A stretch of 64,000 nt of DNA from Candidatus Woesearchaeota archaeon (GTDB lineage: Archaea; Nanobdellota; Nanobdellia; Pacearchaeales; GW2011-AR1), in the NCBI GenBank assembly GCA_964482075.1, contig CAYZVU010000001.1, positions 343 through 64,342 on the forward strand, in the 5' to 3' direction. How positions within the stretch are numbered: position 1 is the first letter of the stretch; each line of letters starts with the position of its first letter. The translations under genes and the position numbers were made by a program. Below, piece after piece: positions 49,606 through 56,264 of this stretch. The notes under the pieces are model-generated. The model was not told where the DNA came from, did no database searches, and saw nothing but the letters and a program-made list of their open reading frames with translations.

Positions 49606-50385
49606 TTAGGATTTTTCATTGGGTTTTCCTATTTTTTCTAGTTTATTTTGAACGTGATTAAATAATGTTGAGGAAAGTAATGGTTGGTGATTCCCGGGAT
49701 GAATTTGCCCGTCAAATTTGATTTTCCCTAAATAAGTCTGGTTTTTTAGAATCTTTTTCACACCATTTACTGAAAAGCCAAACTTTTTTGAAAGCTGAGT
49801 TAAACTAATTGTTGAATTCAGAAATTCTTGAAAAATTTCCTGAACTTGGTAAGAATGCTCGGCAGGGATAAGCTTTTTCTCTTCTAATCTATACCCAAAT
49901 GGAGCCCTAGTAACTACATCTCCATCTCTTGCCTTTTTATCCATTGCAAACTTTGTTCGTTCCCCAGTCACATTTCTCTCAAATTCTGCGAAAGCAGAAA
50001 TTATATGAAACATTAATTTTCCTGAGGCAGATGTAGTTTCAATTTTATCTTGCAATGAAATAAAATCTATATCCCATTCTTTTAGCTTTTCAATTGTTTC
50101 AATCAAATCTTTTAGTGATCTTGAGAACCTATCCAATTTGTAAATAAAGATTGCTTGGAATTTTCTGAGTTCTGCATCTTCTAAAAGTTGCGTCATTTCA
50201 GGTCTTCCTTTGATATCTTTTGCAGATTTTCCCTCCTCTCTGTAAATTTTTGAAATTTCGTATCCTAAAGCCTTTGCATAATTTTGTAGGGCCTCTTCTT
50301 GGGCTGCGAGAGAAATCCCATGCCTTACTTGCTCTTCTGTTGAAACACGGATATATATTACTGCTTTTGGTTTTTGGTCTATCAT
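49606..50385 (-). CDS. Serine recombinase (resolvase/invertase family)
   Basis: Catalytic N-terminus AVIYIRVSTEEQVRHGISL...Q (Ser nucleophile), a resolvase core (DRFSRS, KLMFHIISAFAEFER), and a C-terminal HTH-like tail. Confidence 0.85.
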   Translation of the reverse strand: MIDQKPKAVIYIRVSTEEQVRHGISLAAQEEALQNYAKALGYEISKIYREEGKSAKDIKGRPEMTQLLEDAELRKFQAIFIYKLDRFSRSLKDLIETIEKLKEWDIDFISLQDKIETTSASGKLMFHIISAFAEFERNVTGERTKFAMDKKARDGDVVTRAPFGYRLEEKKLIPAEHSYQVQEIFQEFLNSTISLTQLSKKFGFSVNGVKKILKNQTYLGKIKFDGQIHPGNHQPLLSSTLFNHVQNKLEKIGKPNEKS

Positions 50386-50854: not shown

Positions 50855-50922
50855 GTAAATTTTTTGGTAATTTTATTGTGGCCTGCCGGCCTTGTGCACT
50901 TAGGTTGCCTTAGTTATTATAT
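50855..50922. repeat. 68-bp direct repeat copy A with GC-rich near-palindrome GGCCTGCCGGCC
   Basis: gtaaattttttggtaattttattgtggcctgccggccttgtgcacttaggttgccttagttatta recurs at 51447-51514 with 2 mismatches. Confidence 0.8.
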
Positions 50923-50967
50923 TTTAGAAGATATATAAAAATATAAAAGAATCTAATTTAACTTTGT

Positions 50968-51450
50968 ATGATTAATCCAGAAATTATATCTCTTGGAAAT
51001 GCTGGAAAAATAATAAGAATAATCCCAAATAAAGAAAGTGTTTTTCAAGAAAAGGCTTGGAGAGTATTTATGGGATTAAACCCCGAATGGGTCTATAGAG
51101 CTATGAAAATTGATCAGGGAAAAGTGAAGGATGAATTTAAAAGAAGGGGTTATGAATGGAGAAATTCTGCTAATTATTCTGAGGATTATTGTGCAGCAGA
51201 GGAAGGGGAAAGTGAAGAGTTTTTTACTTTTAGAAAAAATCATGGGGGATTGGCAAAAGCAATCCTACAAATTTGCATGGACCCTGAAGAAGATTTAGAC
51301 TTTTTATTTAAAATATTAAAATACCCAATATATGCTAGAGTTATCTATCTTGATTATAATGAAACTAATATGGACACCCCAAAACAACAAATGGAATTAA
51401 TCTCACTCTGTAAAGAGTATATTGAAATAATTGATGTCTTGATGGAGTAA
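50968..51450 (+). CDS. Hypothetical protein (160 aa) flanked by 68-bp direct repeats
   Basis: Clean ORF bounded exactly by the two repeat copies; no motif recognised. Confidence 0.4.
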   Translation: MINPEIISLGNAGKIIRIIPNKESVFQEKAWRVFMGLNPEWVYRAMKIDQGKVKDEFKRRGYEWRNSANYSEDYCAAEEGESEEFFTFRKNHGGLAKAILQICMDPEEDLDFLFKILKYPIYARVIYLDYNETNMDTPKQQMELISLCKEYIEIIDVLME

Positions 51451-51514
51451 ATTTTTTGGTAATTTTATTGTGGCCTGCAGGCCTTGTGCACTTAGGTTGC
51501 CTTAGTTATTAGAT
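51447..51514. repeat. 68-bp direct repeat copy B with perfect palindrome GGCCTGCAGGCC
   Basis: See copy A. In this copy the 12-bp core is a perfect palindrome. Confidence 0.8.
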
Positions 51515-51526
51515 GTTTAAGGGGTT

Positions 51527-51800
51527 TTCTTTATTTTAAGGTGTTTGGACAGGCTGTTTGTTTGTTTTATCGACGGGAATATTAACTTAAACAAACAGCT
51601 GTTTGAATTAAATTTATCTGCTTTTTGGCTGTTTAAAGGTGTTTGTGAGTGTTTGGACAGGCTGTTTGTCTGTTTTTTTTCTGACAAACAGCTGTTTTTT
51701 AGGGTATTTTTATTAATTTTTAGTAGTAATTTTTTAATTTTATCGACGAGGGAAAAAAGATATCCACGACGTAAACAAAACATTTTTAAACAATGTTTTG
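51527..51800. promoter_or_regulatory. Iteron/palindrome array (plasmid-origin-like or operator region)
   Basis: 2x GTTTGGACAGGCTGTTTGT (51543, 51651), 2x perfect palindrome AAACAGCTGTTT (51593, 51686), 2x AAGGTGTTTG and 2x TTTATCGACG, all in ~270 bp upstream of the wHTH gene. Confidence 0.55.
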
Positions 51801-51810
51801 CAGATTATAT

Positions 51811-52411
51811 TATGTTTGGTTGGTTTAATAAAAAAAAAGATGTGGAAGAAGTAAGAGAAGAAACAAAAAAAGGTTTTGAAGCAGTTAAAAAAGATATTGT
51901 TTCTGTTAGTGGCTGGATCAAACACCTTGATTCTGAGAAAAAAATACAAAAAAAGGAGTTACAAGACATAAAAGAAGTTTTATCGACGATTCAAATAGAA
52001 ATGGATGGGCTAAAAAATGTACTTTCTTTGATGAATGAGTTAAATCCTAAACAGGTGTTTAAAACACCTAAGAGGGTGTCCAACAAACAAACAGCTGTTT
52101 ATGCTGTTCAAACAGGTGTTCAAACAGGTGTTCAAACACCAAATTTAGGCCAATTTTCAATTACTGAAAGAGCAATAATAAGCATCTTATTAAACACAGA
52201 TTTAAAGCTAAGTTATGATGATTTAGGAGCAATGCTTGGAAAAGAAAGATCTACTATAAGAGGCCAAATAAACTCAATAAAACAGAAAAGTGAGATTATT
52301 TCTGAAAAAATAGAGAAAAATGGTAAAAAGAGGGTGTATATAGAGGAAGATATAAAGGAAAAAATACTCAAAAAGTCGAAAGTGAGAGTTAATAGTGCTA
52401 AAAAAAATTGA
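51811..52411 (+). CDS. Coiled-coil + winged-helix (wHTH) DNA-binding protein with internal VQTG x3 repeat
   Basis: Start MFGWFNKKK at the ATG at 51811. Upstream of this the track ORF runs through the iteron array and was rejected. The protein has an N-terminal coiled coil and a C-terminal wHTH-like domain (ITERAIISILLNTDLKLSYDDLGAMLGKERSTIRGQINSIKQK). It contains a (gttcaaacaggt)x3 repeat at 52106-52140 and an AAACAGCTGTTT palindrome at 52089-52100. Confidence 0.5.
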
Positions 52412-52631
52412 AAAAGGTGAAATAAAATAAAAAAAGTTGTTTTTAAATTCTAAAAGTGAGAGTTTTAAACAATAAAAAAGAGTCAGACTCTCTAAAAAGA
52501 GTGTATTAAGGGTAATATCTAAAAAAAGATATAAAAAAGAACAAAAAAAGGGATTAATATCAACTTAAAGTGAGGATAAAAACAAGTTGATAATAGTTTA
52601 AACTATTTATTCGGTTAGGGGAATAACTTAC

Positions 52632-53288
<657 letters not shown>

Positions 53289-54417: not shown

Positions 54418-54507
54418 GATAAATCCAGAAGAAAATAATTTATAAACTTTTCTGTGAATTTATATAGAGTTAAAAGACTCTATGATTGATGATTTTTGGA
54501 CTTTTTG

Positions 54508-55052
54508 AGTGTGTGTCCCCATGATTTCCTATAGAAGTATTTATAAATAAAAATTTTGTTTTTTTTTATTTTTATTTTATTTATATTATTATATATATTA
54601 TAGTATATATATTATATATTATATATAAAATTTAATATTTTTAGATTTTTTTATTAATTTTTTTATTAAAAATATTTTATTTTTATTTTTTAAAAATTAG
54701 ATTTTTTTATTAGATTATATTTATAATTAAATTAAATTATAAATTTTATTTTATTATAAAAAATAAATATAATAATATAAATATTAAGTTAATTTATAGA
54801 TTTAAGGTAATTTTTTAATTTAAATAATATTTAAAAATAATTTTTTAATAAATATCTTAATATAATTCTTTTTTTCCATTGGAAATGTTGGTGTTCTTAT
54901 TTTTTAGTGATTATAATCTTTTATATAATAAATTTTGTTTTTTTCGTTGGGTTATAATTTGTATAACATTTTTCCATAGGAAATCATACTGTGAGAGATT
55001 ATATATTTCATATAACCTAAGAGTTTAAATATGAAACAAAATTTAATTTAAA
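54508..55052. promoter_or_regulatory. oriC: Chromosomal replication origin (oriC): AT-rich DUE flanked by inverted ORB-like dyads, immediately upstream of orc1/cdc6
   Basis: About 320 bp (54540-54860) of essentially 100% A+T with ATATAT runs. Two direct-oriented dyads sit on the orc1 side: TTTTCCATTGGAAAT (54873-54887) and TTTTCCATAGGAAATCAT (54971-54988). An inverted half-copy CATGATTTCCTATAG sits on the far side (54512-54526). Confidence 0.75.
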
Positions 55053-56264
55053 ATGGGGTCGGATCTAGATAATATTTTTGAATCTTTTGATAAAAATAGA
55101 ATTTTTCAAGATAAAATTATTTTACAAGTTCATCATCAACCAGATGAAATTATTCATCGAGGGGATCAGATAAATCAAATTGCATCTATTCTTGCGCCTG
55201 TTTTGAGAGGAGAGAAGCCAAGTAATCTTTTTTTATATGGTAAAACTGGAACAGGAAAAACATTATCTATACAAAAAGTTAAAGAGGAACTTTTGAAAAG
55301 AATGAAACCTGCTGCAGATTTTAAATTGAGGGTGGAATATTTAAATTGTAAATTAAAGAAAGTTTCTGATACAGAATATAGGATTTTGGCAGAGCTTATT
55401 CGAAAGATGGGTGGGATGGTTCCTGCAACTGGGCTTCCTACAGAATCTGTTTATAATAAATTTATAGATATTATTGATAATGAGAAACAAATTGTTGTTT
55501 TGATTTTAGATGAGATTGATCAAACTGTGAAGAAAATTTCAGATAGTTTTCTTTATAATCTTACCAGGTTAAATTCCGAGCTTTCTAAAACTCAGATTTG
55601 TTTAGTTGGGATTAGTAATAATTTAACTTTTTTAGATGAGATTGATCCTCGTGTTAGAAGTTCTTTATCTGAAGAGGAGATTATTTTTCCTCCATATAAT
55701 GCTTTGCAGTTGCAGGAAATTTTGAGTAAGAGGGCTGAGGTTGCCTTTAGAAAGGGTGTATTGCAAGAGGGTGTTATTGCAAAGTGCTCTGCCTTTGCGG
55801 CTCGTGAACATGGGGATGCGAGAAGGGCTTTGGATTTATTGAGGATAGCTGGGGAGTTGGCTGAAAGAAATGATTCTAAAAAAGTTTTATTAAAACATAT
55901 TGATGAAGCAAATAGTAAATTAGAGAGAGATAAAATTTTAGATATTATTCGTACTGAGCCCAAACAGTTTCAGTTGGTTCTTTATTCTATAATGAGATTA
56001 TTAGAAGAAAGTAAAGAAGAGGCAATTTTTACAGGAGATGTTTATAATCATTATCAAGATTTATGTAAAAAGAATAATTGTGAGGTTTTGACTCAAAGGA
56101 GAATGAGTGATATTCTTCAAGAATTTGATATGTTGGGGATAATTAATGTTCGTATTATTTCAAAGGGTCGTGGGGGGAGAATGAGGGAAATTAGGTTGGC
56201 GATTGCGAAAAATCTTGTTGTTCAGGCAAAAAAAATAATTGAAGATTCTTTAAATTATAATTGA
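55053..56264 (+). CDS. orc1: Orc1/Cdc6 replication initiator
   Basis: AAA+ Walker A LFLYGKTGTGKT, Walker B VLILDEID, sensor motifs and a C-terminal winged helix. Confidence 0.9.
   Translation: MGSDLDNIFESFDKNRIFQDKIILQVHHQPDEIIHRGDQINQIASILAPVLRGEKPSNLFLYGKTGTGKTLSIQKVKEELLKRMKPAADFKLRVEYLNCKLKKVSDTEYRILAELIRKMGGMVPATGLPTESVYNKFIDIIDNEKQIVVLILDEIDQTVKKISDSFLYNLTRLNSELSKTQICLVGISNNLTFLDEIDPRVRSSLSEEEIIFPPYNALQLQEILSKRAEVAFRKGVLQEGVIAKCSAFAAREHGDARRALDLLRIAGELAERNDSKKVLLKHIDEANSKLERDKILDIIRTEPKQFQLVLYSIMRLLEESKEEAIFTGDVYNHYQDLCKKNNCEVLTQRRMSDILQEFDMLGIINVRIISKGRGGRMREIRLAIAKNLVVQAKKIIEDSLNYN

What the first reader, a model, noticed from the sequence alone, without database searches (positions are those of the whole stretch)
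51527..52140. Iteron/palindrome array upstream of, and continuing into, the wHTH gene
A 270-bp noncoding stretch contains four motif families, each present at least twice: GTTTGGACAGGCTGTTTGT, AAGGTGTTTG, TTTATCGACG and the perfect 12-bp palindrome AAACAGCTGTTT. A further palindrome copy (52089-52100) and the third TTATCGACG lie inside the downstream wHTH ORF itself. Repeated binding sites for a cognate winged-helix protein are typical of iteron-type plasmid origins or autoregulated operators. The track ORF starting at 51545 is therefore probably non-coding through this region.
Basis: seen in the sequence. Interest (0 to 1): 0.55.

Follow-up and report, generated by a model that had tools for sequence, protein, structure and literature searches.

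The report
Binding-site array written into a regulator gene
A conserved cluster of short DNA-binding sites lies upstream of, and is written into the protein-coding sequence of, an uncharacterised DNA-binding protein gene next to the replication origin of a tiny (DPANN) archaeon; it most likely lets the protein control its own gene.

Summary
Motif 1 is the half-site SSTGTTT, arranged as direct repeats about 10 bp apart and as the palindromes AAACAGCTGTTT, AAACAGGCTGTTT and TGTTTAAACA. Motif 2 is the palindrome TATCG(A/T)CGATA.

The window is an archaeal chromosome (Pace-/Woesearchaeota type), not a plasmid. The true oriC, with classical ORB boxes around an AT-rich stretch, lies 3 kb downstream, next to cdc6 and PolD.

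In 75 other species the orthologous gene carries the same two arrays. The median is 8 half-sites upstream and 9 inside the ORF. Control 350-nt windows average 0.53.

The in-ORF copies lie in a predicted disordered linker. They are held at synonymous positions and are read in two or three reading frames, so the conserved KQTAVYAVQTGVQTGVQT peptide largely follows from a DNA constraint.

Best reading (0.5): a multi-site operator for the locally encoded coiled-coil winged-helix protein. It brackets a leaderless promoter and the 5' half of the gene and autoregulates it.

Main rival (0.27): an origin-linked architectural or segregation complex. The paralogous neighbour gene carries an ORB in its coding sequence.

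The iteron plasmid origin reading is not supported. The 51545 ORF extension is non-coding. No protein–DNA binding was tested.

The parts
51540..51604 (+). Distal motif-1 module. GGTGTTT (51540), GCTGTTT (51553) and the palindrome AAACAGCTGTTT (51593-51604), with motif-2 box TTTATCGACG (51566-51575) in between.
   Evidence: The same module (SSTGTTTAAACAGCTGTTTG followed by TTATCGWCG) is present in most close orthologous loci.
51628..51697 (+). Proximal motif-1 module. Tandem half-sites GCTGTTT (51628), GGTGTTT (51638) and AGTGTTT (51648) at 10-nt spacing, then GGACAGGCTGTTTG (51655-51668), a T-run, and the palindrome AAACAGCTGTTT (51686-51697).
   Evidence: The architecture is conserved in orthologous loci. 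A 10-nt spacing dominates across 77 loci.
51739..51771 (+). Promoter-proximal motif-2 boxes: TTTATCGACG (51739-51748) and a degenerate CACGACG (51765-51771), directly 5' of the BRE.
   Evidence: One or two TCGWCG boxes, often about 24 nt apart, abut the BRE in many orthologous loci.
51775..51790 (+). Archaeal core promoter: BRE-like ACAAAACA plus TATA TTTTTAAA. The TATA centre is about 25 nt from the ATG, so the mRNA is predicted to be leaderless.
   Evidence: Read from the sequence. ACAAAAcaTTTTTAAA is conserved at this position in nearly all loci. The promoter assignment is inferred from the archaeal BRE/TATA consensus.
51812..52411 (+). wHTH_A gene (199 aa). One long N-terminal helix (residues 2-77), a disordered QT-rich linker (78-113) and a C-terminal winged HTH (117-189).
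51979..51991 (+). In-ORF motif-2 palindrome TTTATCGACGATT, which encodes L-S-T-I.
   Evidence: It is conserved at about +165 in roughly 45 of 77 loci. The two Ser codons are TCG in 86-88% of sequences, against 11% background.
52049..52140 (+). In-ORF motif-1 array in inverted orientation relative to the upstream array. It comprises AAACAGGTGTTT (52049), AAAACACC (52061), AAACAGCTGTTT (52089), two copies of AAACAGGTGTT (52110, 52122) and CAAACACC (52133). It encodes KQVFKT...KQTAVYAVQTGVQTGVQTP in the disordered linker.
51919..51926 (-). Isolated in-ORF half-site (GGTGTTTG on the minus strand).
   Evidence: Reverse-orientation half-sites are enriched at +100 to +200 across loci.
52632..53288 (-). 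wHTH_B, a distant paralogue of wHTH_A arranged convergently. Its linker coding sequence carries an ORB-like box (53043-57, degenerate here) and a (CTGT)11 run (52990-53033) that encodes (QTDR)n.
   Evidence: hhalign of the A and B families gives probability 94.6%, E 6.7e-8.
54505..54984 (.). Probable chromosomal oriC, given as context and not part of the array. Direct ORBs lie at 54871-54886 and 54969-54984, an inverted ORB-like box at 54524-54536, and they flank an AT-rich stretch at about 54540-54860, upstream of cdc6 (55053-56264).

Best explanation
The stretch is a composite cis-regulatory array for the gene it precedes.

Proposed mechanism (inferred):
- The gene product is wHTH_A: a long dimerising helix, a flexible linker of about 35 residues, and a winged HTH.
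- Each winged-helix domain recognises one 7-bp half-site, SSTGTTT.
- Because the two DNA-binding domains of a dimer are flexibly tethered, they can use half-sites in direct (10-bp), inverted (AAACAGCTGTTT) or everted (TGTTTAAACA) arrangement.
- Many dimers load cooperatively on two arrays in opposite orientation. One lies at -270 to -115 upstream. The other lies at +237 to +330 inside the ORF.
- The two arrays bracket the BRE/TATA promoter and the 5' half of the gene, about 450-500 bp centre to centre.
- Occupancy sets the gene's own transcription, through bridging or looping of the two arrays, an intragenic roadblock, or both.
- A second factor, possibly one of the two other wHTH proteins of the cluster, uses TATCGWCGATA. 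Boxes for it abut the BRE and recur at +165.

Shown here:
- the motifs, their local enrichment and their conservation in about 75 species;
- synonymous-site constraint on the in-ORF copies and their use in more than one reading frame;
- the position of the in-ORF array in a predicted disordered linker;
- the chromosomal, origin-proximal context.

Inferred, not shown:
- which protein binds which motif;
- cooperativity and looping;
- the sign of regulation.
For: 1. Local enrichment in the window.

2. Conservation. Counts are per 350 nt. The upstream array has a median of 8 half-sites and the ORF array a median of 9. At least 4 half-sites are present upstream in 67 of 75 loci and in the ORF in 73 of 75. 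Control windows average 0.53, and 11 of 1578 have 4 or more.

3. DNA-level constraint inside the ORF.
- In V/KQT repeats, Val is GTT or GTC only: GTA/GTG are 0 of 215, against 49% elsewhere in the same genes.
- Gln is CAA in 98% (59% elsewhere). Thr is ACA in 96% (49% elsewhere).
- Fisher p values are 1e-40 to 1e-55.
- The variable residue in QTxVQT is G, A or P, always as GGT, GCT or CCT.
- The KQ[VL]F copy uses CAG and [GC]TG, which is the same DNA motif in another reading frame.
- In 33-39%-identical relatives the unit CTGTCCAAACAG is read as [VL]SKQ, SVQT or TDSCP.

4. The array sits in the disordered linker (pLDDT below 50-60).

5. Specificity. In a metagenome scan for GTGTTTAAACAGCTGTTT, 89 of 97 informative hits lie within 450 nt of a wHTH_A start. 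Composite sites number 273 in 70.5 kb at the gene, against 24 in 607 kb of flanks.

6. Promoter links.
- BRE/TATA is conserved about 25 nt from the ATG.
- In the 49-53%-identity clade a half-site lies between TATA and ATG.
- In more distant relatives the few upstream sites flank or overlap the TATA box.

7. A few extra full sites lie in or near HAD-hydrolase genes, as expected for a transcription factor with a small regulon.

8. The fold is a MarR/ArsR-like wHTH, and palindromic sites fit a dimer.

9. Upstream spacing peaks at 10, 20-21 and 30 nt, which puts the sites on one face of the helix.
Against: - No binding data exist. That wHTH_A is the binder rests only on association; wHTH_B, the small wHTH or Orc1/Cdc6 could be the binder.
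- In the window's own clade the nearest motif-1 site ends 86 nt upstream of TATA. This is not the usual archaeal repressor position.
- About 17 half-sites is far more than simple autoregulation needs.
- The in-ORF array persists in lineages where the upstream array is almost gone (L084), so looping cannot be the universal mechanism.
- The locus also carries other dual-coded motifs: an ORB in wHTH_B, and AAAGTGAGAG in the 3' part of wHTH_A. It lies 3-4 kb from oriC in most lineages. Both point to a role beyond transcription.
- No covariation test was possible, because the motif core and the recognition helix are both invariant.
Confidence: 0.5

Rival explanations
1. Origin-linked architectural complex. 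The arrays are the chromosomal loading or nucleation sites of a higher-order wHTH_A/wHTH_B nucleoprotein complex next to oriC. That complex would be centromere-like, an origin tether, or a control on initiation. The protein's own gene is its main genomic target, and autoregulation is only a side effect. Comparable cases are parS inside spo0J/parB, parC upstream of parMR, and RacA/ram.
For: - The block wHTH_A / wHTH_B / small wHTH / hypothetical / PRC-barrel / [AT-rich ORB region] / cdc6 / PolD-DP1 is conserved across relatives of 46-77% identity. cdc6 lies within 5 kb in 36 of 76 loci, and many of the rest are limited by flank or contig length.
- A canonical ORB (TTTCCAnnGGAAAT nnn GGG) is embedded in the wHTH_B coding sequence in about 66 of 68 species, with TCC, GGA and GGG codons fixed.
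- An ORB lies at -117 within the upstream region in L004, L006, L007 and L031.
- The distal cdc6-side ORB is followed by GGTGTT(T/C), which resembles a motif-1 half-site.
- There are about 17 sites with helical phasing.
- The protein has a long helix and a conserved N-terminal MFxWF-KKK motif that could be membrane-binding; this is inference.
- The motif is almost exclusive to this locus.
Against: - No partner NTPase (ParA, SegA or ParM type) is in the conserved cluster.
- In one sub-clade (L058-L077), and in L084, no cdc6 is seen within 4-5 kb.
- Extra sites at HAD-hydrolase genes look like a regulon.
- Sites overlap the core promoter in distant lineages.
- No experimental system exists for these organisms.
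Confidence: 0.27
2. Iteron-type replication origin. The repeats are iterons bound by a Rep-like winged-helix initiator of a plasmid, an integrated element or a second chromosomal origin.
For: - Repeated, helically phased sites lie next to a winged-helix gene.
- A serine recombinase gene lies 1.1 kb upstream.
- ORBs occur in the same position in four other genomes.
Against: - The context is chromosomal and its synteny is deeply conserved.
- There are no Rep, RepA or initiator family hits, and the protein has a single wHTH plus a long helix.
- The repeat unit is a 7-bp half-site or a 12-bp palindrome, not a 17-22-bp iteron.
- There is no ORB and no long AT-rich unwinding stretch inside 51527-51810 in this window.
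- A canonical oriC lies at 54.5-55.0 kb.
- Five viral-contig hits to the motif are unrelated to the gene.
Confidence: 0.04
3. RNA-level element. The conserved nucleotides act in the mRNA or in a non-coding transcript, as structure or as a protein- or sRNA-binding site, rather than as duplex DNA sites.
For: - Synonymous-site conservation alone cannot tell DNA constraint from RNA constraint.
- The upstream array (UGUUU sense) is complementary to the in-ORF array (AAACA sense), so a read-through transcript could pair (I7-I20).
Against: - The conserved BRE/TATA lies downstream of the upstream array, which should therefore not be in the mRNA.
- Sites occur as perfect palindromes without loops and in both orientations.
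- The 10/21/30-nt phasing upstream fits one face of duplex DNA.
- No Rfam family matches.
Confidence: 0.06
4. Recombination sites. The oppositely oriented arrays, or the A and B linkers, are crossover sites for the conserved neighbouring serine recombinase. Recombination would invert the promoter segment or swap the C-terminal domains of the convergent paralogues.
For: - A serine recombinase (Resolvase plus Recombinase domains) is conserved upstream in 23 of 76 loci, and in the distant locus L084.
- The arrays are inverted relative to each other, including a 14-nt perfect inverted repeat at 51553-66 / 52082-95.
Against: - All 76 species show the same orientation, with intact full-length A and B genes.
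- Odd-length homologues inspected are frameshift or assembly chimeras, not N_A-HTH_B fusions.
- The multi-copy 7-bp half-site layout is unlike hix/gix-type 26-bp sites.
Confidence: 0.03
5. Protein-level repeat only, or chance. The in-ORF motif copies merely reflect a conserved VQT peptide repeat, and the upstream copies are low-complexity coincidence.
For: - The linker peptide KQTAVYAVQTxVQTxVQT is itself well conserved.
Against: - Codon choice is fixed well beyond what the peptide requires, and it changes (CAA to CAG, GTT to GTG/CTG) exactly when the motif is in another frame.
- Peptides differ while the DNA is kept in distant lineages.
- The upstream non-coding array has the same motif in about 75 species.
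- Shuffles never reach the observed counts.
Confidence: 0.01

Closest known systems
Auxiliary intragenic operators with DNA looping (lac O1/O2, where O2 lies in lacZ; gal OE/OI, where OI lies in galE). From established knowledge.
   Same: Sites for one regulator lie both upstream of and inside a coding sequence, a few hundred bp apart, and bracket a promoter. The sites are palindromic, as for a dimeric HTH protein. The coding sequence has to carry a DNA signal as well.
   Different: - There are whole arrays (about 8 plus 9 half-sites) rather than single operators.
- The intragenic array is inside the regulator's own gene.
- It is placed in a disordered linker and read in two or three frames.
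- The promoter is archaeal BRE/TATA and leaderless.
- Binding and looping are untested.
Centromere-like arrays that double as operators (parC-ParR of plasmid R1; parS inside spo0J/parB of Bacillus subtilis). From established knowledge.
   Same: - A phased multi-copy site array lies directly upstream of the gene for the presumed binding protein.
- A site lies inside the binding protein's own gene.
- The location is origin-proximal.
   Different: - There is no partner ParA/ParM-type NTPase in the conserved cluster.
- The protein is a long helix plus wHTH, not an RHH or ParB fold.
- Extra sites at other genes suggest a regulon.
Archaeal oriC with ORB/mini-ORB elements bound by Orc1/Cdc6
   Same: - The locus lies 3 kb from a canonical ORB/AT-rich/cdc6 origin.
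- A true ORB is embedded in the paralogue's coding sequence.
- In four other genomes an ORB sits inside the homologous upstream region.
   Different: - Motif 1 (SSTGTTT) is not an ORB dyad.
- This window has no ORB and no unwinding element within 51527-51810.
- The array accompanies the wHTH gene even where cdc6 is not within 5 kb.
Plasmid iterons with dual winged-helix Rep initiators (pPS10 RepA, F RepE, R6K pi). From established knowledge.
   Same: Helically phased repeats lie next to a winged-helix gene, and such sites serve both autoregulation and a second function.
   Different: The locus is chromosomal, and the protein has a single wHTH with no Rep homology. The half-site is 7 bp, not an iteron of about 20 bp, and no DUE is adjacent.
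Sulfolobus ucm element and UBP (PMC12141716)
   Same: A non-initiator DNA-binding protein recognises a short conserved motif associated with an archaeal origin.
   Different: UBP is a saddle-shaped beta-rich nucleoid protein with hundreds of genomic sites. Here the protein is a wHTH and the motif is almost confined to one locus.

Membership tests
Iteron-type plasmid replication origin | Located on a plasmid or other extrachromosomal or integrated replicon | tested here: not met
   Neighbours are ribosomal proteins, cdc6 and PolD. Gene order is conserved in 76 species.
Iteron-type plasmid replication origin | Adjacent gene encodes a Rep-type (dual winged-helix) initiator | tested here: not met
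   There are no Rep family hits in Pfam, NCBIfam or PDB. The model shows one long helix plus a single wHTH.
Iteron-type plasmid replication origin | Tandem direct repeats of about 17-22 bp next to an AT-rich unwinding element | tested here: not met
   The unit is a 7-bp half-site in direct, inverted and everted arrangements. The long AT-rich stretch lies at 54.54-54.86 kb.
Archaeal oriC (ORB + DUE + orc1/cdc6) | ORB or mini-ORB dyads (TTCCAnnGGAAA with a G-rich flank) inside the element | tested here: not met
   There is none in window 51460-51811. ORBs lie at 54871, 54969 and about 54524. A degenerate one lies in wHTH_B at 53043-57. The homologous upstream region has an ORB in only 4 of 77 loci.
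Archaeal oriC (ORB + DUE + orc1/cdc6) | Directly adjacent to the initiator gene | tested here: inconclusive
   The element lies 3.2 kb from cdc6, with four genes between. Proximity is conserved in many lineages but not all.
Autoregulated operator with auxiliary intragenic site (lac/gal type) | Sites of one motif on both sides of the regulator gene's own promoter | tested here: met
   Arrays lie at -270 to -115 and at +237 to +330 in the window and in about 75 species.
Autoregulated operator with auxiliary intragenic site (lac/gal type) | Dyad-symmetric sites matched to a dimeric HTH protein | tested here: inconclusive
   Perfect palindromes are present, and the wHTH fold and long helix are predicted. 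The oligomeric state is not tested.
Autoregulated operator with auxiliary intragenic site (lac/gal type) | The encoded protein binds the sites and changes promoter output | not testable with these tools
   This needs EMSA, footprinting or in-vitro transcription.
Autoregulated operator with auxiliary intragenic site (lac/gal type) | A site overlapping the core promoter or TSS | tested here: inconclusive
   Not for motif 1 in this window, where the nearest site ends 86 nt 5' of TATA. Motif-2 boxes abut the BRE. Motif-1 half-sites lie between TATA and ATG, or flank TATA, in more distant lineages.
Partition centromere (parC/parS type) | Partner NTPase gene (ParA/ParM/TubZ/SegA) in the same cluster | tested here: not met
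   None of the conserved neighbours has an NTPase domain.
Partition centromere (parC/parS type) | Multi-copy phased site array at the gene of the binding protein, origin-proximal | tested here: met

The most novel reading that the evidence does not exclude
The two convergent paralogous coiled-coil wHTH genes next to oriC are themselves the cis-acting scaffold of a Nanoarchaeota-specific origin-organising module.

- Their disordered-linker coding sequences have been taken over as DNA elements: motif-1 arrays in wHTH_A, and an Orc1/Cdc6 ORB plus an (ACAG)n run in wHTH_B.
- The encoded proteins and Orc1/Cdc6 would therefore assemble on the genes that encode them.
- This would couple origin architecture, firing or segregation to expression of the module.
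- The conserved peptides VQTGVQTGVQT and ISTGN would then be translation by-products of DNA signals.
Probability: 0.25. Interest if true: 0.8.

Novelty: new variant of a known kind. Interest (0 to 1): 0.62.

Why it matters
- It gives a concrete, testable DNA motif and target for an uncharacterised protein family. The family is restricted to Pace-/Woesearchaeota-type lineages and is widespread among their assemblies: more than 2500 sequences, no Pfam family and no solved relative. These organisms are uncultivated, and almost nothing is known about their gene regulation or chromosome biology.
- It is an unusually clear case of dual coding. Arrays of protein-binding sites, and in the neighbouring paralogue a replication-initiator box, are embedded in coding sequence and held at synonymous positions over deep divergence. 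They are read in different frames and sit in a disordered linker where the peptide is nearly free to vary.
- For annotation, it shows that conserved low-complexity peptides can be a shadow of DNA signals. It also locates the likely oriC and its accessory elements in these genomes.
- If the origin-linked reading holds, it would point to accessory factors of replication or segregation in DPANN archaea.

Tried and rejected
- Rfam scan of 48.0-55.2 kb at a permissive threshold: only two chance-level matches.
- tRNA scan of the window: none.
- Sequence search of PDB with the family profile: only coiled-coil noise and weak generic HTH hits.
- NCBIfam and Pfam: no family for wHTH_A or the two window-specific ORFs.
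- A 24%-identical homologue from a higher-GC organism (L081) has no arrays and no QT linker, so no covariation test between recognition helix and motif was possible. Within the clade, the motif core AAACAG and the helix STIRGQIN are both invariant.
- The shufflon or domain-swap idea was dropped. All species have the same orientation, and the odd-length homologues are assembly or frameshift chimeras.
- GC skew in the window follows gene orientation and does not locate the origin.
- Viral-contig scan for the motif: 5 hits without the gene, treated as chance.
- Literature searches found no description of this family, motif or dual-coded ORB.
- The sigma-70 promoter and terminator scanner was not used, because it does not apply to archaea.
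Full report
**1. The observation**

- AAACAGCTGTTT is exact at 51593, 51686 and 52089, with a one-mismatch copy at 52049. These are the only four matches (up to 1 mismatch) in 64 kb. The expectation is 0.30, and 0 of 100 dinucleotide-preserving shuffles reached 4.
- TTTATCGACG is exact at 51566, 51739 and 51979 and nowhere else.
- The 19-mer occurs at 51543 and 51651, against 0.00 expected.

Three of the four 'families' share one half-site, SSTGTTT. Twelve of the 19 window matches to SSTGTTTG lie in 51540-52140, against 4.3 expected for the whole window. The fourth family is a separate palindrome, TATCG(A/T)CGATA.

**2. Context**

The window is a low-GC (about 30%) archaeal chromosome. Its genes run as follows:

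- ribosomal proteins L18e, L13 and S9 (47.0-48.2 kb);
- a serine recombinase (49606-50385, minus strand);
- two ORFs without relatives in other genomes;
- the winged-helix gene, here called wHTH_A (true ATG at 51812, 199 aa);
- a convergent second one, wHTH_B (52632-53288, minus strand);
- an 88-aa wHTH, a hypothetical gene and a PRC-barrel gene;
- a 635-bp intergenic region;
- orc1/cdc6 (55053), PolD DP1, an HD protein and PolD DP2.

That intergenic region has two direct ORB boxes, TTTTTCCATTGGAAAT at 54871 and TTTTTCCATAGGAAAT at 54969. An inverted ORB-like box lies at 54524-36. The boxes flank about 300 bp of nearly pure A+T. This is the textbook archaeal oriC layout, 3 kb from the finding.

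**3. The protein**

wHTH_A has more than 2500 homologues, all about 200 aa and 70-77% identical among the best hits. Where named, they come from Nanoarchaeota, Woesearchaeota or Pacearchaeota MAGs. At 50% clustering only 203 representatives are found among 1.84 billion, so the family is lineage-restricted. It has no Pfam or NCBIfam family and no solved relative.

An AF2 model (mean pLDDT 80.6) shows three parts:

- a single helix over residues 2-77;
- a disordered stretch over 78-113;
- a C-terminal winged HTH.

Foldseek aligns the C-terminal domain with MarR, ArsR and Lrs14-type domains. Profile-profile comparison shows that wHTH_B is a distant paralogue (hhalign probability 94.6%, E 6.7e-8). 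Pairwise BLAST does not detect the relationship.

The 51545 TTG extension is not coding. Homologues start at MFGWF. In 69 of 70 orthologous loci an in-frame stop lies within 219 nt upstream of the ATG, and only this window lacks one.

**4. Comparative evidence**

Eighty loci from different species were fetched.

*Synteny.* The order wHTH_A(+), wHTH_B(-), small wHTH(-), hypothetical(-), PRC(-), cdc6(+), DP1(+) recurs throughout. In the closer clade, rpS9 and a serine recombinase lie upstream.

*Half-site density.* Away from the gene, half-sites occur at about 0.08 per 100 nt per strand. Density rises to 1.4-3.6 per 100 nt at -300 to -100 in TGTTT orientation. It rises to 1-3 per 100 nt at +100 to +400 in the opposite (AAACA) orientation.

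| Region (350 nt) | Half-sites | Windows or loci with 4 or more |
|---|---|---|
| Upstream of ATG | median 8 | 67 of 75 |
| ORF, +100 to +450 | median 9 | 73 of 75 |
| Control windows | mean 0.53 | 11 of 1578 |

(All values.)

*Upstream layout.* The layout is conserved. From distal to proximal it reads:

1. a distal module: SSTGTTTAAACAGCTGTTTG followed by TTATCGWCG;
2. an AT-rich spacer;
3. a proximal module: tandem SSTGTTT, then GCTGTTTAAACAGGCTGTTTG, a T-run, and GACAAACAGCTGTTT;
4. one or two TCGWCG boxes abutting ACAAAAcaTTTTTAAA (BRE/TATA);
5. about 22 nt, then the ATG, which implies a leaderless mRNA.

*Spacing.* Consecutive upstream half-sites are most often 10 nt apart (101 cases), then 12-13, 20-21 and 30 nt. 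In the ORF the spacing is 12 or 21 nt, both multiples of three.

**5. The in-ORF copies are DNA-level elements**

They encode the conserved linker KQ[VL]FKT...NKQTAVYAVQT[GAP]VQT[GAP]VQTP, but codon choice goes well beyond what the peptide needs.

| Position | Codon use in the repeats | Elsewhere in the same genes |
|---|---|---|
| Val in V/KQT | GTT or GTC only; GTA/GTG 0 of 215 | GTA/GTG 49% |
| Gln in V/KQT | CAA 98% | CAA 59% |
| Thr in V/KQT | ACA 96%; ACT 0% | ACA 49%; ACT 32% |
| x in QTxVQT | GCT 63 of 63; GGT 43 of 44; CCT 20 of 21 | not measured |

(Fisher p values 1e-40 to 1e-55.)

- The G/A/P variation at position x is exactly the S-S centre of AAACA-SS-TGTT.
- The KQ[VL]F copy is AAA CAG [GC]TG TTT. 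It uses the otherwise rarer CAG, GTG and CTG codons because here the same motif lies in another frame.
- In 33-39%-identical relatives the unit CTGTCCAAACAG recurs 5-7 times. It is translated as [VL]SKQ, SVQT or TDSCP depending on frame.
- Motif 2 behaves the same way. At about +165 the sequence TTATCG(A/T)CGAT(A/T) encodes LS[ST]I, with Ser as TCG in 86-88% against an 11% background.
- A third motif, AAAGTGAGAG, is fixed at Ser160 (AGT 100%) and Val191 (GTG 94%). It recurs in the A-B intergenic region.

**6. Specificity**

Composite motif-1 sites number 273 in the 70.5 kb around the gene starts, against 24 in 607 kb of flanks.

A scan of public metagenomes for GTGTTTAAACAGCTGTTT returned 120 loci:

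- 89 have the site within 450 nt of a wHTH_A start;
- 23 are too close to a contig end to judge;
- 8 are elsewhere.

Five viral-contig hits lack the gene. The few extra full sites in the fetched loci fall in or just upstream of HAD-family hydrolase genes. In the more distant clades, half-sites lie between TATA and ATG or flank the TATA box. The wHTH_B promoter has no such array.

**7. Links to replication**

The wHTH_B linker encodes I-S-x-G-N-x-G from ATTTCCAnnGGAAATnnnGGG, a canonical ORB with its G-rich flank. The TCC, GGA and GGG codons are fixed in about 66 of 68 species. The window copy is degenerate (TTTCCATAAGAAAT, 53043-57). It is followed by a (CTGT)11 run that encodes (QTDR)n.

Four species have an ORB at -117 in the wHTH_A upstream region. 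This window does not.

**8. Interpretation**

*Best-supported reading.* The array is a multi-site operator for the locally encoded protein. Two oppositely oriented arrays bracket a leaderless promoter and the 5' half of the gene. Flexible tethering of two wHTH domains to a dimerising helix would explain the use of direct, inverted and everted half-site pairs. Established precedents for intragenic auxiliary operators are lac O2 and gal OI.

*What is not shown.* Binding, cooperativity, looping and the sign of regulation are all inferred.

*Main rival.* The number of sites, the co-conserved origin-proximal cluster and the dual-coded ORB keep an origin-linked architectural or segregation role alive. 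That reading lacks a partner NTPase in the cluster. The extra sites at other genes also fit it poorly.

*Readings not supported.* The iteron or plasmid origin fails on every defining feature tested. An RNA-level role is disfavoured by the promoter position, the loopless palindromes and the helical phasing. A recombination-site role is disfavoured by the uniform orientation in 76 species.

**9. Novelty**

No paper in the searchable library describes this family, the motif or a coding-embedded ORB. The Sulfolobus ucm/UBP system is only an analogy.

The kind of element is known: an autoregulatory multi-operator, possibly one that also serves as an architectural element. The variant is new: arrays dual-coded in a disordered linker in several frames, conserved across an order-level archaeal clade, and paired with an ORB inside the paralogue.

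Noticed in passing
window 53043-53057 (minus-strand sense) and 52990-53033: The coding sequence of wHTH_B carries an ORB-like box, degenerate here (TTTCCATAAGAAAT). In about 66 of 68 other species it is a canonical ORB (ATTTCCAnnGGAAATnnnGGG, encoding I-S-x-G-N-x-G) with TCC, GGA and GGG codons fixed. It is followed by a (CTGT)11 microsatellite that encodes (QTDR)n. This is an initiator-binding site embedded in a gene about 1.8 kb from the AT-rich origin region.
   Followed up: partly
window 54505-54984: Probable chromosomal oriC. Two direct ORBs (54871, 54969) and an inverted ORB-like box (54524-36) flank about 300 bp of nearly pure A+T, upstream of orc1/cdc6, PolD-DP1, an HD protein and PolD-DP2. 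In several species the cdc6-proximal ORB is followed by TGTGAGAG and the distal one by GGTGTT(T/C). These flanks resemble motif 3 and the motif-1 half-site.
   Followed up: partly
window 50855-50925 and 51447-51517 (also 50412): A 71-nt direct repeat (96% identical, 592 nt apart) brackets ORF 50968-51450, which has no relative in the 80 other loci. The repeat contains a GGCCTGCNGGCC hairpin and the box GTGCACTTAGGTTGCCTTAGTTA. That box is conserved at -230 to -400 upstream of wHTH_A in about 33 close species. A looser third copy lies 27 nt from the serine recombinase start. This may be a cassette-like insertion or a recombinase site, but its function is unknown.
   Followed up: partly
window 49606-50385 (minus strand): A short serine recombinase (Resolvase plus Recombinase domains, 259 aa) is conserved between rpS9 and wHTH_A in all 15 loci whose flank reaches rpS9. 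It is also upstream of the gene in a 38%-identical relative (L084). It therefore looks like a resident chromosomal gene rather than a mobile-element marker.
   Followed up: partly
window 52287-52295, 52379-52390, 52453-52464, 52567-52577: A third conserved motif, AAAGTGAGAG(TT). Two copies are dual-coded in the 3' part of wHTH_A: Ser160 is AGT in 100% and Val191 is GTG in 94% of orthologues. One to three copies lie in the A-B intergenic region across species.
   Followed up: partly
window 52607-52626: A conserved small hairpin (TTATTC-GGTTAGGG-GAATAA) lies just 3' of the wHTH_B stop codon and is present in most close species. It may be a transcript 3'-end element.
   Followed up: no
L001, L011, L026, L042, L046, L050 (1.4-4.6 kb upstream of wHTH_A): Additional full motif-1 sites (TGTTTAAACAGCTGTTT) lie inside or just upstream of HAD-family hydrolase genes in several species. 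This suggests a small regulon. No HAD gene or extra site is present in this window.
   Followed up: partly
window 51812-51841 (protein residues 1-10): A conserved N-terminal MF(G)WF-x-KKK motif precedes the long helix of wHTH_A and is absent from wHTH_B. It resembles an amphipathic membrane-targeting sequence, but this is speculation.
   Followed up: no
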